UHGV virus genome: UHGV-0778869
Source of the DNA: a virus
Direction: 5' to 3' (one strand)
Length of the DNA: 23,187 nt
In this document: positions 1,642 to 19,306 of the stretch, piece by piece
Position numbering within the stretch: position 1 is the first letter of the stretch
How the letters are laid out: each line of letters begins with the position of its first letter
Made by a program: the position numbers and the translations under genes
Notes under the pieces: generated by a model
What the model was told of the DNA's origin: nothing
The model's input: only the letters and a program-made list of their open reading frames with translations
Database searches by the model: none

Positions 1642-1814
1642 TTCCTCGCACGATGTCTTAGCCACCGGATATCCCACAGGTGAGCCGTGTAGTTGAAGGT
1701 TTTTACGTCAGATTCTTTCGGGATTGGCTTGCGTTTATTTCTGGAGCGTTTCGTTGGAAGGTATTTGCAGTTTTCGCAGATTATGTCGGTGATGCTTCGT
1801 CGCTGTCGTCTCAT
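1638..1814 (-). CDS. ninE: NinE-like small basic protein (58 aa)
   Basis: Product [58 protein letters not shown] resembles lambda NinE as recalled. Confidence 0.75.
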
Positions 1815-2865: not shown

Positions 2866-3302
2866 GCAGCCCGATCTCCCCATCGCGCTTTCCATTCGAG
2901 AGCCAGTCGCGCTTCGTCTGACCACTTAACGCCACGCTCTGTACCGAATGCCTGTATAAGCTCTAATAGCTCCGCAAATTCGCTTACACGCATCCTGCTG
3001 GTTGACTGGCCTATTACCACAAAGCCATTCCCGGCAAGGTTAGGAACAACGTCCTGCTGCTTTAATGCAGCTGTAAAAACGCACTTCCAGCTTTCTGCAT
3101 CCAGCCAGCGACCATGCCATTCAACCTGACGAGAGACGTCACCAAGGCAAGCCCAAAGCTTTCGATTCTGGTCTAAGCTGCGGTTGCGTTCCTGAATGGT
3201 TACTACGATTGGTTTGGTTGGGTCTGGAAGGATTTGCTGTACTGCGTGAATAGCATTTTGCTGAAGTGCTGGAGATCGAATTTCAAAGGTCAGTTTTTTC
3301 AT
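2862..3302 (-). CDS. ninB: NinB / Orf recombination mediator (146 aa)
   Basis: From internal ATG at 3302: MKKLTFEIRSPALQQNAIHAVQQILPDPTKPIVVTIQERNRSLDQNRKLWACLGDV..., near-identical to lambda NinB as recalled; SD GAGAGGGAAG upstream. Confidence 0.9.
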   Translation of the reverse strand: MKKLTFEIRSPALQQNAIHAVQQILPDPTKPIVVTIQERNRSLDQNRKLWACLGDVSRQVEWHGRWLDAESWKCVFTAALKQQDVVPNLAGNGFVVIGQSTSRMRVSEFAELLELIQAFGTERGVKWSDEARLALEWKARWGDRAA

Positions 3303-3316
3303 GACTTCCCTCTCCC

Positions 3317-3350
3317 CCAAATAAAAAGGCCTGCGATTACCAGCAGGCCT
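3317..3350 (-). terminator. Intrinsic terminator between helicase and ninB (tR2-like position)
   Basis: On minus strand: stem AGGCCTGC (3350-3343) / GCAGGCCT (3334-3327), 8-nt loop, then TTTTATTTGG. Confidence 0.7.
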
Positions 3351-4815: not shown

Positions 4816-5632
4816 CGTGTTCACCCTCACGAACTTTCAGGTAGGTATTATCGTTAAGCAGGAAATCAAATCCCTTTTTGTGCCAGACGGTTCCGCGTTG
4901 ATGGTTTTGGCGTTCTTCGAACATCCATCGGCAATTTTCGCCTACGTAGCTCAAATAATTTCTCCAGTCCTGCATCGTGAACCCATGCCCGTCAAGCTGG
5001 CGGGTTATCACTCCGGCTTTGCGCCAGAACGTTCGGATCTGGTTTTTACGCTTGTCATTCAGTGCGCGGATTCTTGGCGCTTCAGGAAGGATTTCGTGGT
5101 AAGCATCGACAACATCCTGACAGCTGACGGAAGGTTTTTTCTTGTCAGACTTTTTGTCTGCTGTGGCACTCTCTAATACGTCAGTATTAGAGATATTATT
5201 TATATTATTGTTTATGGACAACCGTTGGACAACCGTTGGACAATATCCGCTGAGAGCCGCGCCATCACTGGTGTTTGCGTTGGACAACTGTTGGACAACC
5301 GTTGGACAATTTTTTGCCTGAAAATCGTCATATTTAACGATTGTAAACAGGCTAAATTTCTTCCCCATCGAGCAAATATTAAGCATACCTTTCGACTCAA
5401 AAGTCCGTAATAAGCTCCGAACTTTGTTGTCGGGGATGAATGTTTCTCTGACCAGTGATGGGCGTCCAGTTATCATCTGACCGCGATCAACAGTTATCGG
5501 ACCGATATCCGTATTGACGACAGTAGATTCGTGATTAGCCTTGAGGATTAAGTGAAGCCAAAGATGTACTGCCTGAGAGTCCTTATAGAGCCTGCTGTCC
5601 ATAAACTGGCGGTGTATAGAGACATACCCCAT
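4805..5632 (-). CDS. Lambda O-like replication initiator containing the origin iterons
   Basis: Start at ATG 5632 (AGGAGG SD) or 5695 (AGGAG SD); iteron-encoded CPTVVQQLS repeats in the middle; C-terminal region resembles lambdoid O proteins. Confidence 0.75.
   Translation of the reverse strand: MGYVSIHRQFMDSRLYKDSQAVHLWLHLILKANHESTVVNTDIGPITVDRGQMITGRPSLVRETFIPDNKVRSLLRTFESKGMLNICSMGKKFSLFTIVKYDDFQAKNCPTVVQQLSNANTSDGAALSGYCPTVVQRLSINNNINNISNTDVLESATADKKSDKKKPSVSCQDVVDAYHEILPEAPRIRALNDKRKNQIRTFWRKAGVITRQLDGHGFTMQDWRNYLSYVGENCRWMFEERQNHQRGTVWHKKGFDFLLNDNTYLKVREGEHDDR
5213..5310. repeat. Origin iterons: six copies of 11-bp GTTGGACAAC(C/T) in two triplets (5213-5244, 5279-5310) separated by 34 bp, next to an AT-rich tract (5181-5212)
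   Basis: Direct tandem repeats read in the sequence, inside the O-like gene as in lambdoid ori. Confidence 0.8.
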
Positions 5633-5681
5633 ACTGGATGCCTCCTGATGTTGTACAGGGTTATGCCTGTAATCAGCTAAC

Positions 5682-5843
5682 TTAACGACGCCCATGTTTC
5701 ACTCCTGCTTTGGCTAGTCTGTAAACACCAACAAGGCGCTCTGCGAACGCCCTGTTATTTGCTGCGGCTACCACTAATCCCTCAGGTGAATCAGGGTGTC
5801 GAATCTCTTCTTTTTCCTGGTATTTCTTACGACGTTTTGTCAT
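5682..5843 (-). CDS. Hypothetical small basic protein (53 aa) between the cII-like and O-like genes
   Basis: ATG 5843-5841 preceded by AGGAG; MTKRRKKYQEKEEIRHPDSPEGLVVAAANNRAFAERLVGVYRLAKAGVKHGRR. Below the ORF-track size cut-off; found by hand. Confidence 0.4.
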   Translation of the reverse strand: MTKRRKKYQEKEEIRHPDSPEGLVVAAANNRAFAERLVGVYRLAKAGVKHGRR

Positions 5844-5877: not shown

Positions 5878-6156
5878 TCAGGCCTCGAAGAATTCGCCGT
5901 TCTTCGGGGCTTTTTCTTTTGTCAGCATTCTGGCTACTTTCTTAGCCAGTTCCGCCAACTCCTCGTCTTCAACACCCCATTCAAGAACAGCAAGAAGCAT
6001 TCCCATTTTGGGGATGAAGCTGTCTTTCCATCGCGAAATTTGCGATTCATTAATCCCTAACGCGTCGGCAACCTTTCGCTGACCACGTACAGCAATTCGA
6101 TTCAGGATGTTGCTTGTAATTGCATTCGCTTTCTTGCGAGTACTTGTAAGTTGCAT
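5878..6156 (-). CDS. cII: CII-like transcriptional activator (P22 C1-like, 92 aa)
   Basis: SQISRWK and MLLAVLEWGV motifs shared with lambda CII; position between cro and O. Confidence 0.85.
   Translation of the reverse strand: MQLTSTRKKANAITSNILNRIAVRGQRKVADALGINESQISRWKDSFIPKMGMLLAVLEWGVEDEELAELAKKVARMLTKEKAPKNGEFFEA
6119..6132 (+). promoter_or_regulatory. Candidate pRE CII-binding site TTGC-N6-TTGC (TTGCTTGTAATTGC)
   Basis: Tandem TTGC tetrads 6 bp apart on the cI-sense strand inside the first codons of the cII-like gene, the lambda pRE arrangement. Confidence 0.6.
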
Positions 6157-6565: not shown

Positions 6566-7282
6566 ATGGAAAATAAAAAATCACTGACGACAGAACAGCT
6601 CGAAGACGCTAAGCGGCTTAAGGCTTTGTATGAGTCAAAAAAGAAAGAATTGGGAATAACCCAATACTCAATCGCTGATGAACTGGGTATCACCCAAGGA
6701 GCGGTAGGGCATTATCTTAATGGCAGAAACGCGCTAAACGTTGAGGTCGCATCTGGTTTTGCACGTTTGTTGCAAGTCTCAATTGCTGATTTTAGCCAGT
6801 CAATTGCTGCCAAGGTTGCAGAACAGGCAGAAAGCCTTAAGAGCGATGCCAACGTAAGGTATGCAGGGGAATACAGAGCAGGAAAGAGGTATCCGGTGTT
6901 AAGCAGTATCCAGGCTGGCTCGTGGTGTGAAGCATGCGAACCATACACCATTAAAGACATAGATGTTTGGCTTGAGTCTGACGCGCATATTCAAGGTAAT
7001 GCGTTCTGGCTTAAAGTGGAAGGTGATTCAATGACGGCACCGGTTGGGTTAAGCATTCCAGAGGGAACATTCGTTCTTTTCGATACCGGAAGGGAGGCGA
7101 TCAACGGCAGCTTGGTCATAGCAAAACTTTCTGACTCTAACGAAGCAACATTCAAGAAGCTGATAATCGACGGCGGAAATAAATACCTCAAGGGACTTAA
7201 TCCTGCATGGCCTCTCGTGCCAATCAATGGAAACTGCAAGATTATAGGCGTTGCAATTGAGACAAAACTAAGGCTGGTTTGA
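6566..7282 (+). CDS. cI: CI/C2-type prophage repressor (HTH plus S24 LexA-like autopeptidase, 238 aa)
   Basis: N-terminal HTH (ITQYSIADELGITQGAVGHYLNG); Ala-Gly cleavage site (SIQAGSW), catalytic GDSMTAP and FKKL; C-terminal half close to P22 C2 as recalled. Confidence 0.9.
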   Translation: MENKKSLTTEQLEDAKRLKALYESKKKELGITQYSIADELGITQGAVGHYLNGRNALNVEVASGFARLLQVSIADFSQSIAAKVAEQAESLKSDANVRYAGEYRAGKRYPVLSSIQAGSWCEACEPYTIKDIDVWLESDAHIQGNAFWLKVEGDSMTAPVGLSIPEGTFVLFDTGREAINGSLVIAKLSDSNEATFKKLIIDGGNKYLKGLNPAWPLVPINGNCKIIGVAIETKLRLV

Positions 7283-7299
7283 TCACGCAAGGGGCGATT

Positions 7300-7668
7300 A
7301 TGGTTGGAACCGCTATAGCAAGCTTTTTTGGGATGTTGGCAATCTCGACAATTTACGGCTTAGCGCATGCTTTTATTGCGAAATCTCTATCAGAAAAAAT
7401 AAGCCAGGCTTGGGCGCATAGATCAGCTCGTTTCATGATTCTGGTGATCATAGCAATACAAGGGATATCTGCATTTATCCTCTATGGATCAAGCTTATAC
7501 CTATTGTATCAAGGCGCGACATTTACGCCTTACACCAGTGATTACGGAACTCTATACGATGGTAGTGAAGACATCACTGTGGCTTGGATCGTCTTTGGTT
7601 TATCTATGGCCGTGTCTGTTGTAGCAGACATCATTAAGGTAATTATCGTCTTAACCTTCGCTGACTAA
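7300..7668 (+). CDS. Small polytopic membrane protein (about 122 aa) downstream of cI
   Basis: ATG 7300 with AAGGGG SD (alternative ATG 7279 overlaps the cI stop); three to four hydrophobic helices; same strand as cI. Confidence 0.6.
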   Translation: MVGTAIASFFGMLAISTIYGLAHAFIAKSLSEKISQAWAHRSARFMILVIIAIQGISAFILYGSSLYLLYQGATFTPYTSDYGTLYDGSEDITVAWIVFGLSMAVSVVADIIKVIIVLTFAD

Positions 7669-7754
7669 CCTATAATCCCGGCAGCAATAGCTATCGGGAT
7701 CCACTTCACATATCCCGCATAAAAAGCACTGAACAAGCAGACACCGAAAAAATA

Positions 7755-7841
7755 AATATCCTTTGTATTCATTTGCTTATCATTATTTCACCAAAAATAA
7801 ATACCTTGGGTATTTACACAATAAAATACCTACAGTATTCT
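7755..7841 (+). promoter_or_regulatory. OL region: three 15-bp operators (7755-7769, 7800-7814, 7825-7839) overlapping pL
   Basis: AATATCCTTTGTATT, AATACCTTGGGTATT, AATACCTACAGTATT. pL: -35 TTTACA (7813-7818), 17-bp spacer, -10 TATTCT (7836-7841). Confidence 0.6.
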
Positions 7842-7887
7842 TTAGCCATCAGCAGGACGCTGGAAGCCAAACGGAACAGATTGGCAG

Positions 7888-7928
7888 GCTCTTTAACATT
7901 GATGGGATTGTCCCGCCGAAATGCGGGA
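7888..7928 (+). promoter_or_regulatory. nutL: boxA GCTCTTTAACA (7888-7898) plus boxB hairpin TCCCGC-CGAAAT-GCGGGA (7911-7928)
   Basis: Same boxA/boxB as nutR, downstream of pL and upstream of the N-like gene. Confidence 0.7.
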
Positions 7929-8241
7929 ACCAAAGAGTAGTTGGCTTTGGGGTGACGTGAAGTGCAGCTGCACGACGGCAACCGGAAGATAAGCACCCGG
8001 CGCGCCACCGCCAAAGTCAATTCCATAGGCGTTATGCAGCCGCCACCATATTCAAGAAAGCTGCACAAGAGGTAGGAGGATTTATGTGAATACTTACATT
8101 CAATTGAGAGATTAATTAAATAGAACTGATCGAGCAGAGTCCATAAAGGCTCATAAATGCTCTTCCATCCCCGTCTAATTGGCGGGGAAGGAAACAACTT
8201 TGTAATAAAAAAATTCCAAAGTTGTTTCATCGGAGGTCAAC

Positions 8242-8514
8242 ATGACAGTAGTCATTACATATCTGGCTGACGATAACGCCAGAAATCGCCGCAGAGCACG
8301 CAGACAGGCTCAACGTGAACAGGCAATGCAAGAGCAGCGACTGGCGCGAAAAATTGCGCTAAAGCTCTCTGGTTGCGTCAGAGCAGATAAAGCAGCATCA
8401 CTCGGAAGCCTTCGCTGCAAGAAGGCAGATGAATGCAGTGGAAGTATTTGCCTGCCAAACGTAGCCATTTACTCGGCAGGCTACCGGAAATCAAAACAAC
8501 TGACAGCCAGGTAA
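8242..8514 (+). CDS. N-like transcription antiterminator with arginine-rich motif (P22 gp24-like, 90 aa)
   Basis: GGAGG SD; ARM NARNRRRARRQAQREQA near the N-terminus; C-terminal ...YSAGYRKSKQLTAR resembles P22 gp24 as recalled. Confidence 0.8.
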   Translation: MTVVITYLADDNARNRRRARRQAQREQAMQEQRLARKIALKLSGCVRADKAASLGSLRCKKADECSGSICLPNVAIYSAGYRKSKQLTAR

Positions 8515-8517
8515 GTG

Positions 8518-8742
8518 ATGAATCAGACATACATTCCATCATGCTTGAGAAATCTGCCAAAGCAGAAAGCAAAGCCCCGCAAGCAAGCCATAAAGGACGC
8601 TAAGGCAGAGGTTATTGATCAAGCAATACAATTGCTCAGGGAGGAGTTAAGAAGTGGCAAGCTCGAAGGAATGATGATGCCCTATCAGCGCGGATATCTT
8701 TCGGCGATTAGTAAGCTGGAAGTATTGAAGAGTGAATTATGA
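8518..8742 (+). CDS. Hypothetical protein (74 aa)
   Basis: ATG 8518 after AGGTAAG; MNQTYIPSCLRNLPKQKAKPRKQ...; ATGA overlap with the next gene. No family recognised. Confidence 0.5.
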   Translation: MNQTYIPSCLRNLPKQKAKPRKQAIKDAKAEVIDQAIQLLREELRSGKLEGMMMPYQRGYLSAISKLEVLKSEL

Positions 8743-9431
8743 ACTATCTGGAATTTCCGGATGGTTCATTGTTTTGGCAGCAAACCACTTATTTGAGAGG
8801 AATTAATATGTCATCAATCCGCTTAACTACGAGAATGAAAGAGAAAATCGCTCGTAACGCTTTAATTAAGTCTGGGGTTTTCACTGAGCTTGAAGAAGTA
8901 ACAAAGTTAAAGAGCCAGCTTGCACTTGACGCCAGAGTTATTGCGTTTGGCGGTAAAAAGAAAACTGAGGAAGTGGATCAGTTATCATCCAAGTTAGTAG
9001 CTATAAGTGAAGAACTTGAAAAACTGGGATGTTCATTTTACTCATACGATGTTCGTTCTACTTCAATTTATCTGACTGTATCTGGCAGAAGGGTTGGATG
9101 GCTTTCATATGGGGAAGACGGCAACGGCGAAGATATATTGCTCCCTACTCCGACCAAAGATAAATGCATGTTTGACGCAGAACACGAAATAACAAAAAGG
9201 TTTGATGAAATCTGCGCATTGCAACAAAAACTTGAAGCCAAGAAAAAGGATATCGAATCAAATGTATGGGCTGCTTTGAACTCAGTCACAACAGTTAAGC
9301 GACTTATTGAAGTTTGGTCTGAAAGCAAAGAATTGCTACCAAAAGAAGCAGATAAAGCAAGTACAGCACTTCCTGCTTTACGGGTAGAAGATTTGAATAA
9401 GATGATTGGACTTCCTTCCGAGGCCGCATAG
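8739..9431 (+). CDS. Hypothetical protein (230 aa; alternative start 8808)
   Basis: ORF with coupled start; internal ATG 8808 has a GAGAGG SD; stop lies inside the terminator hairpin. No family recognised. Confidence 0.55.
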   Translation: MNYLEFPDGSLFWQQTTYLRGINMSSIRLTTRMKEKIARNALIKSGVFTELEEVTKLKSQLALDARVIAFGGKKKTEEVDQLSSKLVAISEELEKLGCSFYSYDVRSTSIYLTVSGRRVGWLSYGEDGNGEDILLPTPTKDKCMFDAEHEITKRFDEICALQQKLEAKKKDIESNVWAALNSVTTVKRLIEVWSESKELLPKEADKASTALPALRVEDLNKMIGLPSEAA

Positions 9432-9448
9432 TCGGCCTTTATTTTTGG
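9421..9448 (+). terminator. Intrinsic terminator
   Basis: Stem AGGCCG (9421-9426) / CGGCCT (9433-9438), loop CATAGT, then TTATTTTTGG. Confidence 0.7.
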
Positions 9449-9565
9449 CACTAACAACAGAATAAACACAGCACTGTGTATTCATTCCAACGAGTGAATA
9501 CACGGAGCAATGTCGCTCGTAACTAAACAGGAGCCGACTTGTTCTGATTATTGGAAATCTTCTTT

Positions 9566-9594
9566 GCCCTCCAGTGTGAGGGCAATTTTTTTTG
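9566..9594 (+). terminator. Intrinsic terminator immediately upstream of the next gene's RBS
   Basis: Stem GCCCTC / GAGGGC with loop CAGTGT, then AATTTTTTTTG; GGAGG SD follows at 9597. Confidence 0.7.
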
Positions 9595-9605
9595 ATGGAG
9601 GATAT

Positions 9606-10574
9606 ATGAGTGAAGTAACAGATTTAGTTGTTATTGAAAAAGCAAATGCAATGACTGTATTTCAGTCTGCCGACCAGATTGAAGAAATCCTTCAAAAGGT
9701 TGAACGTGAAGTTATGTCCTTTGTGCCTGATATCACAACGGCAAAGGGCAGAAAGGAGATCGCTTCTCTGGCGTATAAAGTTGCGCAGACGAAAACATAT
9801 CTCGATGGTCTTGGCAAAGACCTTGTTGCTGAACTGAAGGAAATTCCAAAGCTAATTGATGCCAACCGCAAGACAGTGCGTGATCGCCTTGATGAGCTGA
9901 AAGCCAAGGCGCGCCAGCCTCTTACTGATTATGAGGAGGAACAGGCACGGATTAAAGCCGAAGAAGAAGCTAAGGCAGCAGCTGAAGCTCTCGCAAAGCA
10001 AATTGAGTCTGACCATGAAATAGCGATTTTGATGGATCGCGAATTTGACCGCCAAAGAGAAGAGGCAAGACTCAAAGCGGAGCAGGAAAAGCGAGAGCAT
10101 GAAGAACGCTTAAAAAGAGAAGCTGAAGAGAAAGCCAGAGCAGAAGCCGAAGCAAAGGCAAAAGCCGAAATTGAAGCAGCAGCAAGGCGAGAAGCAGAAG
10201 CTAAGGCCGCAGCGGAACGTGCAGAGCGTGAACGTATTGAAGCCGAGCAACGAGCACAGCGCGAAGCAAAAGAGGCAGCAGAACGAGCTGAAAGAGAAAA
10301 GCAGGCGGCAATTGAAGCAGAACGCCGAAAAGCACAGGAGGAGGCTGAACGAATCCGGCGCGAGGCTGAAGCAAAAGAGCAAGCAAGAATAGCAGAAGAA
10401 AAAAGAATCAAGGACGAAGAAGAGCGTAGAGCAAAGGATAAAGCTCACCGGAAAGAAGTAAATAACAAAATACTTGCTGACCTTATCAAGGTTGGCGCAT
10501 CAGAAGATGTTGCTAAAAATATCATAACAGCCATCGTAAAAGGCGAAGTATTCGCAACAAAAATAACCTACTAA
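9606..10574 (+). CDS. Hypothetical protein (322 aa): N-terminal globular domain, long Glu/Ala/Lys/Arg-rich coiled-coil, short C-terminal domain
   Basis: ATG 9606 with GGAGG SD; the low-complexity centre (EAEAKAKAEIEAAARREAEAK...) generates several spurious antisense ORFs; sits upstream of the Sak4-like gene. Confidence 0.7.
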   Translation: MSEVTDLVVIEKANAMTVFQSADQIEEILQKVEREVMSFVPDITTAKGRKEIASLAYKVAQTKTYLDGLGKDLVAELKEIPKLIDANRKTVRDRLDELKAKARQPLTDYEEEQARIKAEEEAKAAAEALAKQIESDHEIAILMDREFDRQREEARLKAEQEKREHEERLKREAEEKARAEAEAKAKAEIEAAARREAEAKAAAERAERERIEAEQRAQREAKEAAERAEREKQAAIEAERRKAQEEAERIRREAEAKEQARIAEEKRIKDEEERRAKDKAHRKEVNNKILADLIKVGASEDVAKNIITAIVKGEVFATKITY

Positions 10575-10598
10575 TAAAACCAACATAAGGAACCACCC

Positions 10599-10745
10599 AT
10601 GATTTACGCAATCGCGGGAGGCGCTCGCATGGGTGCCTTCCAACTAAATGAATCTTTACTTGAACGAATCACCCGTAAATTACGTGACGGATGGAAACGA
10701 CTCATCGACGTACTTAATCAGCCAGGAGTTCCAAAAAATGGATAA
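10599..10745 (+). CDS. Hypothetical small protein (48 aa)
   Basis: ATG 10599 with AAGGA SD 7 nt upstream; MIYAIAGGARMGAFQLNESLLERITRKLRDGWKRLIDVLNQPGVPKNG. Below ORF-track cut-off; found by hand. Confidence 0.4.
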   Translation: MIYAIAGGARMGAFQLNESLLERITRKLRDGWKRLIDVLNQPGVPKNG

Positions 10746-10851
10746 AACACTTATGGCTATCCAGACTAAATTCACTATCGCCGCTTTTATTGGCGATGAA
10801 AAGATGTTTCGTGAGGCCGTCGAAGCCTACAGAAAATGGAGGTCAAAATGA
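10738..10851 (+). CDS. Hypothetical small protein (37 aa)
   Basis: ATG 10738 overlaps the previous ORF end; MDKTLMAIQTKFTIAAFIGDEKMFREAVEAYRKWRSK; the upstream extension of this frame (10648) overlaps the 48-aa ORF. Confidence 0.4.
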   Translation: MDKTLMAIQTKFTIAAFIGDEKMFREAVEAYRKWRSK

Positions 10852-11036
10852 TTCCGGTAGAACTGGCGAAAACTCCAGAGTTAAGTCGATTAAAAAGAGA
10901 ATATCACATTGCTGAGGCTCGTTACTGGCGTAAAGCGGGAGATAAATCAAAGAAACAACTTTGCTTATGGCAGGCACAAAGAGAGCGCATGAATGAGCGT
11001 GAGTTTCTTTCCTCCCCATCCGAATTACCATTCTGA
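10848..11036 (+). CDS. Hypothetical small protein (62 aa)
   Basis: ATG 10848 with GGAGG SD and ATGA overlap with the previous ORF; MIPVELAKTPELSRLKREYHIAEARYWRKAGDKSKKQL... Confidence 0.5.
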   Translation: MIPVELAKTPELSRLKREYHIAEARYWRKAGDKSKKQLCLWQAQRERMNEREFLSSPSELPF

Positions 11037-11044
11037 GGCAAATT

Positions 11045-11746
11045 ATGGGAACTGCGACATTAATACTCGGTGAATCTGGCACCGGAAAATCAACCAGCAT
11101 GAGAAATATCAATCCAGAGGAAGCAATACTTATAAAACCAATAGGCAAGCAGCTTCCATTTAAATCAAAAGACTGGCTGGCATGGGATGCCAGAGCAAAA
11201 AAAGGAACCGTAGTTACCACTGACAAATGGGACGTAATAGTTGCCGTAATTAAGCGTGCTCACGAATACGGGAAAAGAATCGTTATTGTTGATGACTTCC
11301 AGTATGTGATGAGCAATGAGTTTATGCGCCGCTCAGAAGAAAAATCGTTTGATAAATTCACTGAGATAGGCCGCCACGCATGGGAGGTGATTAAGGCTGC
11401 ACAGGATGCACCTGATGACCTGAGAGTCTATTTTCTTGCGCACACCGAAGAAACCCCTATGGGGCGTGTGAAAATGAAGACTATCGGCAAAATGCTGGAC
11501 GAGAAAATCACTGTCGAAGGCATGTTTACTATAGTTCTTCGCACCCTTACCCGCGATGACCAGTTCTTTTTCACCACGAAAACAACGGTGCAGACACTGT
11601 TAAATCCCCAATGGGAATGTTTGATTCTAATGAGATTGATAACGATCTCTCTTTCGTCGATGCCACTGTTTGTGATTACTACGGCATCAATAATGTTCAT
11701 CAAATTAAGGAAAACGCCGCATGAGCAACGTGATTTTTACTTATAA
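11045..11746 (+). CDS. Sak4-like RecA-fold ATPase (AAA_24-type), probably frameshifted near 11560-11590; intact-frame end would be 11724
   Basis: Walker A GESGTGKST, Walker B IVIVDDF. After ...DQFFFTTK the in-frame tail looks non-protein-like, while the -1 frame reads NNGADTVKSPMGMFDSNEIDNDLSFVDATVCDYYGINNVHQIKENAA and ends in a stop that overlaps the next ATG. Confidence 0.7.
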   Translation: MGTATLILGESGTGKSTSMRNINPEEAILIKPIGKQLPFKSKDWLAWDARAKKGTVVTTDKWDVIVAVIKRAHEYGKRIVIVDDFQYVMSNEFMRRSEEKSFDKFTEIGRHAWEVIKAAQDAPDDLRVYFLAHTEETPMGRVKMKTIGKMLDEKITVEGMFTIVLRTLTRDDQFFFTTKTTVQTLLNPQWECLILMRLITISLSSMPLFVITTASIMFIKLRKTPHEQRDFYL

Positions 11747-12308
11747 CGAAGAAGCAGCACTGACCGCAGGGCAAGGTGGTTTTATTAACGAAACTGGTGC
11801 TCATATCATTACCATTACTGAAGCAGAACTAAAGCAATCAGAAAAAGGAGCCAAATTTATTGAGTTTTCTGGCGAATCTGACGACGGACGTAAAATCCAA
11901 TATCTTAGCGTCTGTGTTCAGAAAAATGACGGAACGGAAAACAAATTTGGCGCAAATGTCGTTCACGCCATGATGGGGTGTGCCGGGATTGGACAATTAA
12001 CGCAACATATGGTTTCCGCCAGTAAATTTGTTGCTCCTGAGTTTCATGGAAAGAAAATCGGGTTAGTGCTCCAGAAAGTATTAACCACAAACAAAAAGAC
12101 TGGCGCAGACAGCTACCAGATGGAAATACGCATCCCGTTTATTGCACAAACAGGTCAAACCCTTAAAGAAAAGGCGGAAGGCAAGCAACCAGAAACTATC
12201 GCCAACATGGTTGCCAGCCTCAAAGATAAAGACAATCGCTCTAAAAACGTAAGCCAGAATCATGCAGATGATTATGGTTACAGCCAGAACGATTACCCTC
12301 CTTTCTGA
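11721..12308 (+). CDS. Putative ssDNA-binding partner of the Sak4-like ATPase (195 aa)
   Basis: Immediately downstream of the ATPase; acidic C-terminal tail ending ...DDYGYSQNDYPPF, reminiscent of SSB tips (E. coli SSB ends DDDIPF). OB fold not verifiable by eye. Confidence 0.5.
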   Translation: MSNVIFTYNEEAALTAGQGGFINETGAHIITITEAELKQSEKGAKFIEFSGESDDGRKIQYLSVCVQKNDGTENKFGANVVHAMMGCAGIGQLTQHMVSASKFVAPEFHGKKIGLVLQKVLTTNKKTGADSYQMEIRIPFIAQTGQTLKEKAEGKQPETIANMVASLKDKDNRSKNVSQNHADDYGYSQNDYPPF

Positions 12309-12331
12309 TTATTGAAAATAAGGCTCCCATT

Positions 12332-12628
12332 ATGCCAGCGCCTCTGTATGGTGCGGATGACCCGCGCAATTGCTCCGGTAGCTCCAAGGCGGAGGTGCTG
12401 GAAAATATCAAAAACAATTTCGACGCGTTTCTTGCTCTGACACCAGAAACAAAAGCAGAACGGATGTACCGACGCGATATACAACTCGCGCTAAAACAGG
12501 AGAAGGACCGAACAAACGAAACAGCAATGAGACCGTTGCGAAAAGCGACAATAGACAAATTCCCTGAATATATCGACCCGCGCCTGCGTAATTACCGATC
12601 ACGCTATGGCGCTATCAGTAATGACTGA
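12332..12628 (+). CDS. Hypothetical protein (98 aa)
   Basis: ORF with weak AAGG SD; [34 protein letters not shown]...; no family recognised. Confidence 0.45.
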
Positions 12629-12638
12629 GGAATTTACC

Positions 12639-12803
12639 ATGAGAGGACTTGCATACAATCCCGGCATTCTTCAGGCAGAAATGATTATTCGCCAACGCGT
12701 AAAGCCAATGCCATCGAGAGAGGAATTACTTAAGAGAAATAGTTTCGGTTCTGTTAATGACAACAAATATCTGAATGCGATGTGGCGGAGTGGGAAGAAA
12801 TGA
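12639..12803 (+). CDS. Hypothetical small protein (54 aa)
   Basis: ATG 12639 with GAGGA SD 8 nt upstream; [34 protein letters not shown]... Confidence 0.45.
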
Positions 12804-13231
12804 AACAAATGTCACTAATTGAGATGGATGGATTTCTGAAAGGTAAATGCATCCCACGAGATTTAAAGGTTAACGAAACAAACGCTGAATATCTGGTGCG
12901 TAAGTTCGGTGAACTTGAATCAAAACTAGAAACGGCGTTGCGGGAGTGTCGTTCTGCTGGAATCACGATTGATAACCTTGAGGCTAAATGCGCGAAGATG
13001 GCTGCTGAAAATACCTCACTTAAGCAATCTGAGAAGGAATTTAATGACTTTTGTCGTGAGGAGTTTAGCGAATGGGAAGATGATGTTACTGAAACCCCAG
13101 CCACCGATGCTTTTCTGGCTGAAGTACGGGCGCAGGGGGTAGAGATGTTTGCTGACCATCTGTTGTGCCCAGACCTTGATGACACTATCCGTGACTTTGC
13201 TTCCCAGCTTCGCAAAGGAGGCAACCAATGA
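12800..13231 (+). CDS. Hypothetical acidic protein (143 aa)
   Basis: ATG 12800 overlapping the previous stop (ATGA), GGAG SD; predicted helical/coiled-coil. Confidence 0.55.
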
Positions 13232-13845
13232 GCGAGATTGACTATCAGGCATTGCGTGCTAAGGCAGAAAAAGCAACGTGTGGCGAGTGGTCGCTCGAAT
13301 ATGGAGAGGGCCGATTTGATGGTGATGATGCGCTAATTCATCGCGAGGCTGCTGGATATCTTCCCATTTGCAGAATTGAAGGAGCGCATCCTGAAAGCGG
13401 TTTCGATGAAGATTTCCAAATGGAACAGCAGGCCAATGCTGAATTCATCGCCGCAGCCAATCCGGCTACCGTCTTGGCGCTGCTTGGCGAGCTGGAAGCA
13501 GCAGAGAACAACCTTATTGATAGTGAATGCCATGTTGCTGAACTGGAAGAAGCGCTACGCGATAAGCAGGCGTTACTTGAAGCATCAGAAAAGCGCATAG
13601 CAGAACTGGAAGCCGAACTCGTAAGCCAAACTTACAAGTTGAACGAGCTATCGGGCAACTCTCCGGTAACTCCGGATGGTTGGGTTGTAGTGCCGAAGGA
13701 GTTAACACCGGAAATGATGAGAGCCGTTCAGATTAGAAGTGAGCTTGGAGGGTATGCCACTTCCAATCTATCTGGTGCATACAATATGTTTTCTGAGTTC
13801 TGGAATGTTGCTGTCTCAGCTGCGCCTAAGGTGGATGATTTATGA
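13228..13845 (+). CDS. Ead/Ea22-like protein (205 aa)
   Basis: Strong AAAGGAGG SD; N-terminus [22 protein letters not shown]... and central coiled coil resemble the Ead/Ea22-like family of lambdoid prophages as recalled. Confidence 0.55.
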   Translation: MSEIDYQALRAKAEKATCGEWSLEYGEGRFDGDDALIHREAAGYLPICRIEGAHPESGFDEDFQMEQQANAEFIAAANPATVLALLGELEAAENNLIDSECHVAELEEALRDKQALLEASEKRIAELEAELVSQTYKLNELSGNSPVTPDGWVVVPKELTPEMMRAVQIRSELGGYATSNLSGAYNMFSEFWNVAVSAAPKVDDL

Positions 13846-13991
13846 ATCTATATCGCTGCCCATTCTGTGGTTCCACTGTGCTTAACATCGGATACTCATT
13901 CAGTATCAGAGGGAAAATGCGCTATGTGTCATGCAAATGTGGTGCCCAAGGACCAGAAAAACGAACTAGATCTGAAGCGATTTCTTCATGA
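13842..13991 (+). CDS. Small zinc-ribbon protein, Lar-like (restriction alleviation family) candidate (49 aa)
   Basis: MNLYRCPFCGSTVLNIGYSFSIRGKMRYVSCKCGAQGPEKRTRSEAISS; CPFCG...CKCG motif; ATGA overlap with the upstream gene. Found by hand. Confidence 0.45.
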   Translation: MNLYRCPFCGSTVLNIGYSFSIRGKMRYVSCKCGAQGPEKRTRSEAISS

Positions 13992-14000
13992 AATAGTCGA

Positions 14001-14138
14001 ATGAAAGTATGGGTTTATGATCCAGAAACAATATTAAACGTTGAAGAGCGCAGGAGAACAGAAGTCTATATTCATAACCTTAATGAAGATGGATTTACAC
14101 CAGTGCTCGTAAAGGCTACTCCGCAGGAGGTGAAGTGA
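14001..14138 (+). CDS. Hypothetical small protein (45 aa), weakly supported
   Basis: ATG 14001, no clear SD; MKVWVYDPETILNVEERRRTEVYIHNLNEDGFTPVLVKATPQEVK. Confidence 0.25.
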   Translation: MKVWVYDPETILNVEERRRTEVYIHNLNEDGFTPVLVKATPQEVK

Positions 14139-14416
14139 TGGACTCCTTCGCGAAATATACGATTATTGACTGGATAGCATTCCTTCAGGTTTTGCTCATC
14201 TGGTTTTATATGGCTTACAGGAGTGGACAGTGGATTGTCAGTGTAGCCTGTAGCAGGGGATGGCGTTGGTGGAACCGAAAGAATAAAAAAGCACTGGCAT
14301 TGGATTCGTTTTACGAAGCATTCAATCTTAACAGTCTTCAGCCTGGTTCTGTCATTGTAGTCACCACTCAAAGCGGCATGACCATTCAGATTCATAAACC
14401 AAAAGAGGAAAAATGA
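14138..14416 (+). CDS. Small membrane protein (92 aa) with one N-terminal transmembrane helix
   Basis: ATG 14138 with AGGAGG SD; hydrophobic IIDWIAFLQVLLIWFYMAY then basic stretch RGWRWWNRKNKK. Confidence 0.55.
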   Translation: MDSFAKYTIIDWIAFLQVLLIWFYMAYRSGQWIVSVACSRGWRWWNRKNKKALALDSFYEAFNLNSLQPGSVIVVTTQSGMTIQIHKPKEEK

Positions 14417-14502
14417 TGTGGCCTATATGTGTTAATTGCGGACGGATGTGCCTATCTGGATGGTGCCGAAAGTGCGACAAATGCACGAAGAAAAGACAAT
14501 AA
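14413..14502 (+). CDS. Cys-rich mini-protein (29 aa), zinc-ribbon-like
   Basis: AGAGGA SD; MMWPICVNCGRMCLSGWCRKCDKCTKKRQ; start overlaps the upstream stop. Confidence 0.3.
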   Translation: MMWPICVNCGRMCLSGWCRKCDKCTKKRQ

Positions 14503-14536
14503 CAATCCTCGCACTCGCGGGGATTTCTTTTATCTG

Positions 14537-14563
14537 AACTCGCTAGGGCGAGTTTTGTTTTAT
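14537..14563 (+). terminator. Intrinsic terminator
   Basis: Stem AACTCGC / GCGAGTT with loop TAGG, then TTGTTTTAT; the next gene's SD follows. Confidence 0.7.
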
Positions 14564-14574
14564 GGAGACAAGAA

Positions 14575-14919
14575 ATGTCAGATTTGGCTATGAAGGTTTT
14601 GAAATGGCAATCGACTGGCGATGTTGGCATTAGTAGCGCAACTCTTGCCTCAATCGCATGTGGACTGGAAAAGAATATCTATGGTCATCACTTCGGCGCT
14701 CCCCATGACGCAGCAGACTTCCGGCGATGCGTTGCACTTGTTGAGCAGATTCCAGAAATCAGAGATTCATTCGACAAGGTTGCAAAGCGCGTTCCGGCAT
14801 TCAAAGGCATCCTCACCGAATGGGATTCCCTCGTTGCTCTGTTGAAGTCTGAAATGAAGATACACCGAAACAAAGCACCAGAGACTTACAGAAGAATTAG
14901 CGAGTTACGCAAGGACTAA
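14575..14919 (+). CDS. Hypothetical protein (114 aa)
   Basis: ATG 14575 with GGAGA SD; MSDLAMKVLKWQSTGDVGISSATLASIACGLEKNIYGHHFGAPHDAADFRR...; no family recognised. Confidence 0.55.
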   Translation: MSDLAMKVLKWQSTGDVGISSATLASIACGLEKNIYGHHFGAPHDAADFRRCVALVEQIPEIRDSFDKVAKRVPAFKGILTEWDSLVALLKSEMKIHRNKAPETYRRISELRKD

Positions 14920-14977
14920 CCACAGCCTAACACTCGATGAGGCCAGTTCATTTCTCAAGATATCCAGACATACCATC

Positions 14978-15001
14978 GCCGCATCAATGCGGCTTTTTCT
15001 T
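14978..15001 (+). terminator. Intrinsic terminator upstream of xis
   Basis: Stem GCCGCA / TGCGGC with loop TCAA, then TTTTTCTT. Confidence 0.6.
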
Positions 15002-15013
15002 GCGTGTAATTGC
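15000..15013 (+). promoter_or_regulatory. Candidate pI CII-binding site TTGC-N6-TTGC (TTGCGTGTAATTGC)
   Basis: Same motif as at pRE; sits just 5' of the xis ATG so that a dependent transcript would start inside xis, as for lambda pI. Confidence 0.6.
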
Positions 15014-15025
15014 GGAGACTTTGCG

Positions 15026-15244
15026 ATGTACTTGACACTTCAGGAGTGGAACGCTCGCCAGCGACGCCCAAGAAGCCTTGAAACAGTTCGTCGATGGGTG
15101 CGCGAGTGCAGGATATTCCCTCCTCCGGTTAAGGATGGAAGAGAGTATCTGTTCCACGAATCAGCGGTAAAGGTTGACTTAAATCGACCAGTAACAGGTA
15201 GCCTTTTGAAGAGGATCAGAAATGGGAAGAAGGCGAAGTCATGA
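15026..15244 (+). CDS. xis: Excisionase Xis (72 aa)
   Basis: MYLTLQEWNARQRRPRSLETVRRWVRECRIFPPPVKDGREYLFHESAVKVDLNRPVTGSLLKRIRNGKKAKS matches lambda Xis as recalled; overlaps int by 23 nt. Confidence 0.95.
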   Translation: MYLTLQEWNARQRRPRSLETVRRWVRECRIFPPPVKDGREYLFHESAVKVDLNRPVTGSLLKRIRNGKKAKS

Positions 15245-16292
15245 GCGCCGGGATTTACCCCCTAACCTTTATATAAGAAACAATGGATATTACTGCTACA
15301 GGGACCCAAGGACGGGTAAAGAGTTTGGATTAGGCAGAGACAGGAGGATAGCAATCACTGAAGCTATACAGGCCAACATTGAGTTATTTTCAGGACACAA
15401 ACACAAGCCTCTGACAGCGAGAATCAACAGTGATAATTCTGTTACGTTACATTCATGGCTTGATCGCTACGAAAAAATACTCGCCAGCAGAGGAATCAAG
15501 CAGAAGACACTCATAAATTACATGAGCAAAATTAAAGCAATAAGGAGGGGTCTGCCTGATGCTCCACTTGAAGACATCACCACAAAAGAAATTGCGGCAA
15601 TGCTCAATGGATATATAGACGATGGCAAGGCGGCGTCAGCCAAGTTAATCAGATCAACACTGAGCGATGCATTCCGAGAGGCAATAGCTGAAGGCCATAT
15701 AACAACAAACCCGGTCGCTGCCACTCGCGCAGCAAAATCAGAGGTAAGGAGATCAAGGCTTACGGCTGACGAATACCTGAAAATTTATCAAGCAGCAGAA
15801 TCATCACCATGTTGGCTCAGACTTGCAATGGAACTGGCTGTTGTTACCGGGCAGCGAGTTGGTGATTTATGCGAAATGAAGTGGTCTGATATCGTAGATG
15901 GATATCTTTATGTCGAGCAAAGCAAAACAGGCGTAAAAATTGCCATCCCAACAGCATTGCATGTTGATGCCCTCGGGATATCAATGAAGGAAACACTTGA
16001 TAAATGCAAAGAGATTCTTGGCGGAGAAACCATAATTGCATCTACTCGTCGTGAACCGCTTTCATCCGGCACAGTATCAAGGTATTTTATGCGCGCACGA
16101 AAAGCATCAGGTCTTTCCTTCGAAGGGGATCCGCCTACCTTTCACGAGTTGCGCAGTTTGTCTGCAAGACTCTATGAGAAGCAGATAAGCGATAAGTTTG
16201 CTCAACATCTTCTCGGGCATAAGTCGGACACCATGGCATCACAGTATCGTGATGACAGAGGCAGGGAGTGGGACAAAATTGAAATCAAATAA
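15222..16292 (+). CDS. int: Tyrosine integrase, lambda Int type (356 aa)
   Basis: MGRRRSHERRDLPPNLYIRNNGYYCYRDPRTGKEFGLGRDRRIAITEA... ...HELRSLSARLYEKQ...LLGHKSDTMASQYRDD: essentially lambda Int as recalled, with the R-H-R-Y catalytic region. Confidence 0.95.
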   Translation: MGRRRSHERRDLPPNLYIRNNGYYCYRDPRTGKEFGLGRDRRIAITEAIQANIELFSGHKHKPLTARINSDNSVTLHSWLDRYEKILASRGIKQKTLINYMSKIKAIRRGLPDAPLEDITTKEIAAMLNGYIDDGKAASAKLIRSTLSDAFREAIAEGHITTNPVAATRAAKSEVRRSRLTADEYLKIYQAAESSPCWLRLAMELAVVTGQRVGDLCEMKWSDIVDGYLYVEQSKTGVKIAIPTALHVDALGISMKETLDKCKEILGGETIIASTRREPLSSGTVSRYFMRARKASGLSFEGDPPTFHELRSLSARLYEKQISDKFAQHLLGHKSDTMASQYRDDRGREWDKIEIK

Positions 16293-16540
16293 TGATTTTA
16301 TTTTGACTGATAGTGACCTGTTCGTTGCAACAAATTGATAAGCAATGCTTTTTTATAATGCCAACTTAGTATAAAAAAGCTGAACGTGAAACATTAAAAA
16401 TCATTAATATCAATGCATTACAATATCTTTAGTCTAAAAAATAGACTACATAATGCGACAAAACACAACATATCCAGTCACTATGAATCAACCACTTAGA
16501 TGGTATTAGTGACCTGTAACAGAGCATTAGCGCAAGGTGA
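16293..16540. other. attP: P' arm, 15-bp core (16366-16380, reverse complement of GCTTTTTTATACTAA) and P arm
   Basis: P' arm and core match lambda attP as recalled; the P arm (16476-16525) is similar to lambda's but diverged. Confidence 0.85.
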
Positions 16541-16543
16541 TTT

Positions 16544-16584
16544 TTGTCTTCTTGCGCTAATTTTTTGTCAACATACTGGGTTAT
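16544..16584 (+). terminator. sib / tI-like hairpin terminator downstream of attP
   Basis: Stem TTAGCGCAAG / CTTGCGCTAA (10 bp), 14-nt loop, then TTTTTTG; matches the lambda sib/tI region as recalled. Confidence 0.75.
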
Positions 16585-16781
16585 CTGAATTTACAACCAT
16601 GCTCAGTATCTCGATAAGCGCAGAGAAATGATGCAGTGGTGGGCGGACTGGCTTGATGAAAAGGTGGAGTGATCCACCTTTACCATTATCGAAGAGAACA
16701 AAGCCTTGCAAGCCAATGCAAAGCTTTGTGTGTCCCGTTTTTGTCTCAACATAGCCTTAGATATAGACAACGCAATCACTT

Positions 16782-18848: not shown

Positions 18849-18969
18849 TTCATTGCTCCAGACGAATGATATGATGCAACCATGATGTGATTGCATACCG
18901 AAATGGTACTATTGAGTATTTATCCAGTAGGTTACGATGCCATTCCACCCAACTGGTGAGGCATCAAGG

Positions 18970-19236: not shown

Positions 19237-19306
19237 AAATCTAGTTTCCGGCTAAAATGGCATTGCCTTCATGATATCCTGTGAAAAACTAAGGAGAGTT
19301 AACCAT

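What the first reader, a model, noticed from the sequence alone, without database searches (positions are those of the whole stretch)
9606..12308. Recombination module built from a coiled-coil protein, Sak4-like ATPase and SSB-like protein instead of Red or Erf
No exo/bet/gam or erf homologues are visible. The pL operon instead carries a 322-aa coiled-coil protein, three mini-ORFs, a RecA-fold Walker ATPase and a protein with an SSB-like acidic tail ending in ...DYPPF. Sak4-type annealing ATPases are known to work with a cognate SSB; the coiled-coil protein and mini-ORFs are uncharacterised candidates for accessory or anti-nuclease roles.
Basis: partly seen in the sequence, partly recalled or inferred. 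Interest (0 to 1): 0.4.

Follow-up and report, generated by a model that had tools for sequence, protein, structure and literature searches.

The report
HK620-type Sak4–SSB module, sak4 frameshifted
This is the recombination gene set of coliphage HK620 (hkaM, sak4, ssb, abc2), already characterised in the lab and sitting in a P22-like phage, and its only unusual feature is a one-base deletion that breaks the sak4 recombinase gene.

Summary
The module is not new. After repair of one base, Sak4 is 224/226 identical to phage HK620 Sak4. SSB is 194/195 identical, including the NDYPPF tail, and the small upstream ORF is 61/62 identical to HkaM. Hutinet et al. 2018 showed that HK620 Sak4 anneals ssDNA with ATP and is stimulated through that SSB tail.

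Two of the three mini-ORFs are cIII and kil. The anti-nuclease is Abc2 (12332-12628), just outside the given coordinates. The coiled-coil gene is a Sf6 gene-33 homologue. It travels independently of sak4: it is present in 8/51 Sak4 loci and 10/15 Erf loci.

Forty-seven conserved C-terminal residues are replaced by 54 out-of-frame ones. No other record examined shares this deletion: 181 E. coli genomes, 66 phage records, 61 IMG/VR loci. It is the only difference from the closest relative over about 12 kb. I cannot tell a real mutation from a sequencing error.

One by-product: every complete HkaM-family member examined ends in Pro-Phe, like an SSB tip, and the gene sits directly upstream of Sak4 or Erf genes.

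The parts
9420..9439 (+). Terminator-like hairpin with T-tail at the end of the Nmad5 gene
   Evidence: Consensus scan only.
9564..9585 (+). Conserved tL2-type intrinsic terminator (8-bp GC-rich stem followed by T8), just upstream of the coiled-coil gene
   Evidence: Scan. The stretch 9510-9605 is conserved at 93-98% in about 290 lambdoid phages that lack the coiled-coil gene, and is annotated 'terminator' in HK97, HK75 and O276.
9606..10574 (+). 322-aa protein, a homologue of Sf6 gene 33 (phrog_1376). It has a conserved N-terminal domain of about 105 aa, an E/A/R/K-rich single long helix of about 190 aa whose length varies between homologues, and a C-terminal domain of about 45 aa. Function unknown. 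It is not a component of the recombination module.
   Evidence: phrog_1376 4e-110 with no Pfam hit. No NCBIfam or PADLOC hit. AF2 model has helix 106-295 at pLDDT above 90. Helix composition is E 26%, A 24%, R 15%, K 11%. Homologues range from 245 to 333 aa. Co-occurrence: 8/51 Sak4 loci and 10/15 Erf loci.
10599..10745 (+). cIII (48 aa)
   Evidence: PF02061 1.9e-24, phrog_550 6e-29.
10738..10851 (+). kil (37 aa). It overlaps cIII by 8 nt and shares an ATGA overlap with hkaM.
   Evidence: PF06301 2.5e-20. 35/37 identical to HK620 Kil.
10848..11036 (+). hkaM (62 aa), phrog_1723. A small protein of unknown function with a family-invariant C-terminal Pro-Phe, here ...PSELPF.
   Evidence: 61/62 identical to HK620 HkaM. 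phrog_1723 2e-33. Tail conservation is shown.
11045..11746 (+). sak4 ORF as written (233 aa). Residues 1-179 are native; residues 180-233 are out of frame.
   Evidence: phrog_2872 2e-83 but matching only profile positions 1-179 of 219. AAA_24 29.2 bits against a cut-off of 27. Residue counts.
11579..11582 (+). A4 run, the site of a 1-nt deletion. All relatives have ACG-AAAAA-C or ACA-AAAAA-C here.
   Evidence: Alignments. Absent from 205 places in 181 E. coli genomes, from the phage records listed among 66 full-length matches and from 61 IMG/VR loci.
11581..11724 (+). Native reading frame of the lost Sak4 C-terminus (NNGADTVKSPMGMFDSNEIDNDL...HQIKENAA). Its stop overlaps the ssb ATG as ATGA.
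   Evidence: Inserting one A restores a 226-aa protein 224/226 identical to HK620 Sak4. The phrog_2872 score rises to 360 bits over profile positions 1-218 of 219.
11721..12308 (+). ssb (195 aa), the non-canonical phage SSB of HK620 HkaK / 'SSB-2' type. It has an OB-fold core and a disordered tail ending NDYPPF.
   Evidence: 194/195 identical to HK620 SSB. phrog_743 1.8e-66. AF2 model pTM 0.75 with residues 177-195 disordered. Foldseek finds PrgE at 7e-4, then bacterial SSBs.
12332..12628 (+). abc2 (98 aa), a RecBCD modifier. It is part of the module but lies outside the finding's coordinates.
   Evidence: PF11043 1.5e-35 over the full length. 100% identical to the Stx2a-phage allele and about 61% to the P22 and HK620 alleles. 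Pro68 is conserved.

Best explanation
The region is the early-left (pL) recombination module of a P22-like lambdoid phage, of the type first characterised in coliphage HK620: hkaM, sak4, ssb, abc2. It is preceded by cIII and kil.

The mechanism is taken from experiments on the near-identical HK620 proteins and on P22 Abc2. Abc2 binds RecC and reprogrammes host RecBCD. The phage SSB coats the resulting ssDNA. Its C-terminal NDYPPF tip recruits Sak4, a core-only RecA-like ATPase, which anneals complementary strands in an ATP-dependent way.

In this particular sequence sak4 has lost one A from an A5 run. The last 47 conserved residues are replaced by 54 unrelated ones. As written, the annealase is most likely inactive, while hkaM, ssb and abc2 are intact. 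Whether the deletion is a recent real mutation or a homopolymer sequencing error cannot be decided from the sequence.

The coiled-coil gene upstream is an independent mosaic element, not a module part.
For: Shown here:
- Protein identities to HK620: Sak4 224/226 after repair, SSB 194/195, HkaM 61/62.
- Profile matches: Sak4 phrog_2872, SSB phrog_743, Abc2 PF11043, CIII, Kil.
- Same gene order as HK620, HK629, JEP4 and APC_JM3.2.
- The SSB model is an OB-fold with a disordered tail.
- The frameshift is seen against 4 phages, HK620 and the closest relative L017. L017 is 99.94% identical, and the missing A is the only difference over window 7229-19184.
- Repairing the base adds 80 bits and 39 profile positions to the Sak4 family match.
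- In 82 loci, Sak4 is always followed by this SSB type and then by Abc2 (64 of 64 Sak4 loci).

From the literature:
- ATP-dependent annealing by HK620 Sak4, stimulated by SSB through its last six residues NDYPPF (PMC5928155).
- Abc2 binds RecC, with Pro68 engaging PpiB (PMC9836394).
Against: No biochemical test was made on this allele. The RecA-core fold of Sak4 was not tested here; a sequence search of the PDB found nothing.

The Abc2 allele is only about 61% identical to the studied P22 and HK620 alleles, so its mechanism is inferred.

That the frameshift inactivates Sak4 is inferred from conservation, not shown. Ssb keeps its own AAGGA ribosome-binding site, so polar effects may be small.
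Confidence: 0.93

Rival explanations
1. The missing A is a sequencing or assembly error in a homopolymer. The real phage has an intact 226-aa sak4 and a fully functional HK620-type module.
For: The deletion is in a homopolymer. It is a singleton among more than 300 related copies. It is the only difference from L017 over about 12 kb. The exact 233-aa product is not on record anywhere.
Against: No other 1-nt coding indels were found in about 10 kb of alignments at 98% identity or more to relatives. At the only other indel cluster (19185-19274), the window agrees with IME10 at the part IME10 covers (about 19185-19200) and L017 is the odd one there. So the window is not visibly error-prone. An A5-to-A4 slip is also a common real mutation.
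Confidence: 0.5
2. One reading: a four-part recombination system in which the coiled-coil protein and the three mini-ORFs are accessory or anti-nuclease partners of Sak4 and SSB.
For: All of these genes lie in one operon. HkaM is always immediately upstream of the annealase gene.
Against: Two of the mini-ORFs are CIII and Kil. The coiled-coil gene is absent from HK620, JEP4 and HK629. It is found with Erf in mEp213 and HK544, and in 8/51 Sak4 loci against 10/15 Erf loci. In HK620, sak4 plus ssb alone gave the full recombineering activity of the whole module. The anti-RecBCD role is filled by Abc2.
Confidence: 0.07
3. The frameshift is programmed. A -1 ribosomal slip at ACG-AAA-A restores the native frame and yields K-N-N-G, exactly the wild-type sequence.
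For: A -1 slip on AAA would regenerate the wild-type protein sequence (read directly from the sequence).
Against: All other copies examined are in frame, so there is no conservation of a recoding site. There is no X-XXY-YYZ heptamer; the -1 codon would be GAA. The scan shows no strong downstream structure. A4 is too short for transcriptional slippage, by established knowledge.
Confidence: 0.02

Closest known systems
Phage HK620 recombination module hkaM-sak4(hkaL)-ssb(hkaK)-abc2(hkaJ) (Clark 2001; Lopes 2010; Hutinet 2018, PMC5928155)
   Same: Same genes in the same order, with the same ATGA overlaps. Sak4 is 224/226 identical after repair, SSB 194/195 including NDYPPF, HkaM 61/62, Kil 35/37 and N 87/90.
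   Different: sak4 carries a 1-nt deletion. Abc2 is a different allele: about 61% identical to HK620's and 100% identical to the Stx2a-phage allele. The upstream region differs: Nmad5 and the Sf6 gp33-like coiled-coil gene here, against hkaQ/hkaP in HK620.
Phage P22 module arf-erf-abc1-abc2
   Same: Same position after cIII-kil in the pL operon. Both have a homologous Abc2 at the distal end.
   Different: The annealase is Erf (Rad52-like), not Sak4. Abc1 takes the place of an SSB. P22 Arf shows no similarity to HkaM.
Sf6 / HK97 / mEp213-type module: Arf-like gene, gp29-like (phrog_1723), erf, SSB (phrog_44), abc2
   Same: Shares an HkaM-family gene directly upstream of the annealase, an SSB with a ...DDSIPF tail after it (in mEp213), and Abc2. 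These phages often also carry the same coiled-coil gene.
   Different: Erf instead of Sak4, and a different SSB family.
Lambda Red (gam-bet-exo)
   Same: Same operon position and the same overall role of phage-directed single-strand annealing recombination.
   Different: No homologous proteins. Red supplies its own exonuclease and inhibits RecBCD through Gam, rather than reprogramming it through Abc2. None of the window's pL-operon ORFs hit Red profiles.

Membership tests
Sak4 (core-only RecA-like SSAP; Pfam AAA_24, phrog_2872) | Walker A and Walker B motifs | tested here: met
   GESGTGKS at residues 9-16 and IVIVDD at 79-84.
Sak4 (core-only RecA-like SSAP; Pfam AAA_24, phrog_2872) | Profile match above threshold | tested here: met
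   AAA_24 scores 29.2 bits against a cut-off of 27. phrog_2872 gives 2e-83 as written and 8e-108 after repair.
Sak4 (core-only RecA-like SSAP; Pfam AAA_24, phrog_2872) | Complete, in-frame gene including the conserved C-terminal segment (…KSPMGMF…) | tested here: not met
   A 1-nt deletion at 11579-11582 puts the last 47 native residues out of frame.
Sak4 (core-only RecA-like SSAP; Pfam AAA_24, phrog_2872) | RecA-core fold | not tested
   phmmer against PDB sequences gave no hit, and no structure was predicted. The claim rests on Lopes 2010 and Hutinet 2018 for the 99%-identical HK620 protein.
Sak4 (core-only RecA-like SSAP; Pfam AAA_24, phrog_2872) | ATP-dependent ssDNA binding and annealing | not testable with these tools
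   Shown for HK620 Sak4 (PMC5928155).
Sak4 (core-only RecA-like SSAP; Pfam AAA_24, phrog_2872) | Adjacent cognate ssb gene | tested here: met
   ssb follows directly at 11721-12308. The Sak4-then-SSB-2 order holds in 64/64 Sak4 loci.
HK620-type phage SSB (HkaK / 'SSB-2', DUF669-named) | Near identity to the biochemically proven SSB, including the NDYPPF tip | tested here: met
   194/195 identical, with an identical tail.
HK620-type phage SSB (HkaK / 'SSB-2', DUF669-named) | OB-fold core with a disordered C-terminal tail | tested here: met
   AF2 pTM 0.75, beta-rich core, residues 177-195 below pLDDT 50. Best PDB matches are the OB-fold ssDNA binder PrgE (E 7e-4, prob 1.0), then bacterial SSBs at E around 1e-2.
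HK620-type phage SSB (HkaK / 'SSB-2', DUF669-named) | Match to the Pfam DUF669 model | tested here: inconclusive
   No Pfam family at E up to 1 in this Pfam copy. However, sources name the homologues DUF669 and phrog_743 matches at 1.8e-66.
Abc2 anti-RecBCD (PF11043) | Full-length profile match and a conserved Pro68 | tested here: met
   PF11043 1.5e-35 over profile positions 1-97 of 97. P68 is invariant in the alignment. Its role is described.
Lambda Red (Exo/Bet/Gam) or Erf/RecT annealases | Any ORF of the pL operon matching these families | tested here: not met
   Pfam and PHROG scans of the pL-operon ORFs from 8515 to 16292 found none.
P22 Arf | Sequence similarity of the ORF at the 'arf position' (HkaM) to Arf | tested here: not met
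   BLASTP found no alignment at E up to 100. The two also fall in different PHROGs, 1723 against 2445.
TolA (the name RefSeq gives the coiled-coil protein) | Match to TolA domain models | tested here: not met
   No Pfam or NCBIfam hit. The name probably comes from the E/A/K-rich helix.

The most novel reading that the evidence does not exclude
HkaM and its relatives (phrog_1723, including Sf6 gp29 and HK97 gp42.1) may be small helical proteins that carry a mimic of the SSB C-terminal tip.

Every complete member examined ends ...[F/L][L/I][G/D/S]-x(1-5)-Pro-Phe-COOH, often after an acidic residue. Compare E. coli SSB DDDIPF and the phage SSB NDYPPF.

The gene always lies immediately upstream of the annealase gene. 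This holds for HK620-type Sak4, for a long AAA_24-type Sak4 and for Erf. In nearly all modules examined an Abc2 gene lies downstream. In HK97 the gene is fused to an Arf-like peptide.

The novel reading is that HkaM docks through its Pro-Phe tip into an SSB-tail pocket. The pocket could be on a host SSB client (ExoI, RecJ, RecQ, RecO, PriA) or on the annealase. By doing so it would tune end processing during dsDNA-break-initiated phage recombination. The oligo recombineering assay that found HkaM dispensable would not detect such a role.
Probability: 0.25. Interest if true: 0.55.

Novelty: already known. Interest (0 to 1): 0.17.

Why it matters
The finding as stated adds nothing new. The Sak4-SSB-Abc2 module of HK620 has been dissected genetically and biochemically. 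It is present in about 3.6% of complete E. coli genomes (195 of 5,426) and in many Stx-converting phages.

Two smaller points could matter.

1. If the sak4 frameshift is real, this phage is a natural annealase-null with intact ssb and abc2. That would allow a test of how much a P22-like phage depends on its own annealase as against host RecA/RecBCD plus NinB and NinG.
2. The invariant Pro-Phe C-terminus of the HkaM family, and its fixed position upstream of unrelated annealases, give a concrete, testable lead for a gene so far called an orphan of unknown function.

Tried and rejected
- **HkaM as a relative of the middle of Abc2.** The idea came from a visual match (C[LI]W.A...ERE...S..PF) and from a natural HkaM::Abc2 fusion protein, P0129. 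Profile-profile comparison gave probability 0.2%, so I rejected it.
- **HkaM as a P22 Arf homologue.** No alignment.
- **HkaM tied to a phage-encoded SSB.** Contradicted by ST160, whose order is HkaM-like, Erf, Abc1, Abc2.
- **Programmed frameshift in sak4.** No conservation and no slippery heptamer.
- **Function of the coiled-coil protein.** Nothing came from Pfam, NCBIfam or PADLOC. PDB sequence search gave only low-complexity hits. Foldseek against BFVD found only uncharacterised proteins of similar architecture. The N-terminal domain of the AF2 model has low confidence.
- **Exact-sequence look-up of the frameshifted 233-aa product.** Not on record.
- **PDB sequence searches for Sak4 and SSB.** No useful hit.
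- **Antisense ORFs in the region.** No PHROG match.
- **Rfam scan of the whole window.** No family.
- **Chi sites.** None in 23 kb, against 0.6 expected, so uninformative.
- **The search for related loci with the broad HkaM alignment.** Failed for lack of a conserved stretch. The genome-contig scan gave only two loci.
Full report
**Context.** The 23-kb window is the early region of a P22-like (Lederbergvirus-like) temperate phage of Enterobacteriaceae.

- On the minus strand lie cII (5878-6156), O (4805-5695), a DnaB-type P (3379-4830), NinB (2862-3320), an HNH gene, Dam and NinG (461-1072).
- On the plus strand lie a cI-type repressor (6566-7282), an N homologue (8242-8514) and then the pL operon, which runs to xis and int (14987-16292).
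- Beyond int lie a P22-type tailspike (16782-18896, minus strand) and mnt.
- The best overall phage matches are Sf6, IME10 and Huey, each in mosaic pieces covering 40-49% of the window.

The stretch 9510-9605 is a terminator region conserved in about 290 lambdoid phages that lack the gene. It contains a GC hairpin followed by T8 at 9564-9585.
- The three small ORFs are cIII (10599-10745, PF02061 1.9e-24), kil (10738-10851, PF06301 2.5e-20) and a 62-aa ORF (10848-11036, phrog_1723 2e-33).
- The ATPase ORF (11045-11746) matches phrog_2872 'Sak4-like ssDNA annealing protein' at 2e-83 and Pfam AAA_24 just above its cut-off.
- The 195-aa ORF (11721-12308) matches phrog_743 'single strand DNA binding protein' at 1.8e-66.
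- Directly downstream, outside the finding's coordinates, is Abc2 (12332-12628, PF11043 1.5e-35).
- No ORF of the pL operon matches Exo, Bet, Gam, RecT or Erf.
- Antisense ORFs in the region match nothing, and no Rfam family is present.

**Identity.** The block kil-hkaM-sak4-ssb is that of coliphage HK620.

- Against HK620, HkaM is 61/62 identical, SSB is 194/195 identical with the same NDYPPF end, and Sak4 is 224/226 identical once one base is restored.
- The same block occurs in HK629, JEP4, APC_JM3.2 and about 60 Stx1a/Stx2a-converting phages. It also occurs in 195 of 5,426 complete E. coli genomes.
- Hutinet et al. 2018 (PMC5928155) characterised exactly these HK620 proteins.
  - Sak4 (HkaL) is a core-only RecA homologue that binds ssDNA and anneals complementary strands only with ATP.
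  - Its weak recombineering activity rises to the level of the whole module when ssb (HkaK) is co-expressed.
  - Deleting the last six SSB residues, NDYPPF, cuts that stimulation tenfold and abolishes Sak4 binding to SSB-coated ssDNA.
  - abc2 gave no stimulation when co-expressed with sak4, and sak4 plus ssb alone matched the whole module, which includes hkaM.
- Abc2 binds RecC near the Chi-recognition site, and its Pro68 engages host PpiB (PMC9836394). Pro68 is conserved here.
- The Abc2 allele in the window is the Stx2a-phage allele (100% identical). It is only about 61% identical to the P22 and HK620 alleles.
- My structure model of the SSB supports 'distant SSB'. It is a beta-rich core with pTM 0.75 and a disordered tail from residue 177. 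Its best PDB neighbours are the OB-fold ssDNA binder PrgE (E 7e-4, prob 1.0) and then bacterial SSBs.

**The frameshift.** The Sak4 profile match stopped at position 179 of 219, and a short ORF at 11611-11724 reads like a Sak4 C-terminus.

- Alignment with JEP4, HK629 and APC_JM3.2 shows that the window has ACG-AAAA-CAAC where they have ACG/ACA-AAAAA-CAAC.
- The native protein is kept through residue 179. Forty-seven native residues are lost and 54 foreign ones are added.
- Restoring the A raises the family score from 280 to 360 bits and extends coverage to profile positions 1-218 of 219. The lost segment is therefore at least as conserved as the rest of the protein.
- The deletion is unique among the copies I examined:
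  - 66 phage records cover at least 80% of the sak4-ssb stretch, and every listed full-length match spans 1265 bases against the window's 1264;
  - a 76-nt probe across the run finds 205 places in 181 E. coli genomes, none at 99% identity or better;
  - 61 of 61 IMG/VR loci with a full sak4 encode 226 aa;
  - the exact 233-aa product is not on record.
- The closest relative is NCBI assembly GCA_001292545.1, contig CYGL01000178.1 (L017). It has the same gene order and an intact 226-aa Sak4. Over window 7229-19184 the missing A is the only difference between the two.
- The change is therefore either very recent or an error. I cannot tell which.
  - In favour of error: it sits in a homopolymer and is a singleton.
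  - Against a generally poor sequence: no other coding 1-nt indel appears in about 10 kb of high-identity alignments. In the one other indel cluster (19185-19274), the window agrees with IME10 at the part IME10 covers, and L017 is the odd one there.
- A programmed -1 slip would regenerate the wild-type peptide. However, the site is not conserved and has no slippery heptamer, so I reject that reading.

**The coiled-coil protein.** It is a homologue of Sf6 gene 33 (phrog_1376). It is widespread in enterobacterial prophages, where sources name it 'TolA', but it matches no TolA model or any other model.

- It has a conserved N-terminal domain and a helix of about 190 residues modelled at pLDDT above 90.
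- The helix is 84% E/R/K/A/Q/D and 12% hydrophobic, which is an ER/K-type helix.
- Its length varies between homologues from 245 to 333 aa.
- It ends in a small conserved C-terminal domain.
- It is not tied to Sak4.
  - HK620, JEP4 and HK629 lack it.
  - mEp213 and HK544 have it upstream of Erf.
  - Among loci where the upstream region could be scored, it is present in 8 of 51 Sak4 loci and 10 of 15 Erf loci.
- Its function remains unknown. A fold search returned only uncharacterised viral proteins of the same architecture.

**HkaM, a by-product.** Hutinet et al. called HkaM an orphan. I found that it belongs to a family.

- Homologues down to about 35% identity were found.
- They include mEp213 gp40, Sf6 gp29 and HK97 gp42.1, all of which fall in the same PHROG as HkaM.
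- In the 16-sequence alignment the invariant positions are S13, A24, R28, G31, E46 and the terminal Pro-Phe.
- The tails read ...PSELPF, GDELPF, GNDLPF, GEPPF, GETPF, DKDMPF, GPCPF and GKLPF. These resemble the SSB tips DDDIPF and NDYPPF, though some lack acidic residues.
- The gene always sits directly upstream of the annealase gene.
  - In 82 loci carrying HkaM (80 from IMG/VR at 97-100% identity to it, 2 from reference genomes at 56-58%), the order is HkaM-Sak4-SSB2-Abc2 in 64.
  - It is HkaM-Erf-canonical SSB, usually followed by Abc2, in 15.
  - It is HkaM-long AAA_24-canonical SSB in 1.
  - Other examples are ES18, ST160 (Erf-Abc1-Abc2), HK97, an Erwinia phage and a Buttiauxella prophage.
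- HK97 gp42 is an in-frame fusion of an Arf-like peptide with the HkaM-like part.
- The annealase-SSB pair therefore appears to be swapped as a cassette between conserved hkaM and abc2 flanks. HkaM's partner is more likely something constant, such as the host or Abc2/RecBCD, than Sak4 itself.
- HkaM shows no similarity to P22 Arf. Its resemblance to part of Abc2 is not significant.
- The SSB-tip-mimic idea is inference only.

**Verdict.** The module is already known and experimentally characterised. The one locus-specific feature is the sak4 frameshift, and whether it is real needs read-level data.

Noticed in passing
window 10848-11036; also L005:5434-5604, L016:2390-2641, L013:2489-2689, L015:2501-2671: Every complete HkaM-family (phrog_1723) protein examined ends in Pro-Phe-COOH, like an SSB tip. 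The gene always lies directly upstream of Sak4 or Erf genes. HK97 gp42 is an Arf-like::HkaM-like fusion. PHROG and RefSeq label these proteins 'recombinase' with no visible basis; Clark 2001 had called HK620 hkaM 'arf' purely by position.
   Followed up: partly
protein P0129 (87 aa, Logan contig of 36 kb): A natural fusion of HkaM residues 1-38 to the C-terminal half of Abc2. It amounts to a deletion of sak4-ssb across a short patch of similarity (QLC[LI]W..A).
   Followed up: partly
window 8739-9431 (+): A 230-aa protein with a full-length Nmad5 domain ('nucleotide modification associated domain 5', PF18757 9e-69) lies in the pL operon between N and the coiled-coil gene. It is preceded by a 75-aa phrog_5305 ORF (8515-8742).
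   Followed up: no
window 9606-10574: RefSeq names this protein family 'cell envelope biogenesis protein TolA'. It matches no TolA model, so the name seems to come from the E/A/K-rich helix. The helix length varies by about 90 residues between homologues, as would be expected for a spacer.
   Followed up: partly
window 12332-12628: There is a mosaic junction inside the module. sak4-ssb is HK620-like (about 99%), but abc2 is the Stx2a-phage allele (100%), only about 61% identical to HK620 and P22 Abc2. Both Abc2 alleles occur behind Sak4-SSB: 41 and 23 loci respectively.
   Followed up: partly
window 19185-19274 against L017:11957-12050: The closest relative (GCA_001292545.1) differs from the window only in a cluster of 4 substitutions and 3 single-base indels at the 3' end of mnt. 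At the part IME10 covers, the window agrees with IME10, so the relative looks like the aberrant one there.
   Followed up: partly
window 1811-2925 (-): A Dam-type N6-adenine methyltransferase (PF05869 8e-66) and an HNH endonuclease (PF13392) sit between NinB and the rest of the nin region.
   Followed up: no
window 461-1072 (-) and 2862-3320 (-): NinG (Rap) and NinB (Orf), which are accessory recombination functions, are intact. They could support host-RecA-dependent recombination if sak4 is truly dead.
   Followed up: no
whole window: There is no Chi site (GCTGGTGG) on either strand in 23 kb. With 0.6 expected by chance, this is not informative.
   Followed up: yes
window 7279-7668 (+): A 129-aa ORF of unknown function (phrog_6534 9e-79) lies just downstream of the repressor gene, at the position of HK620 hkaS and lambda rexA/rexB.
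   Followed up: no
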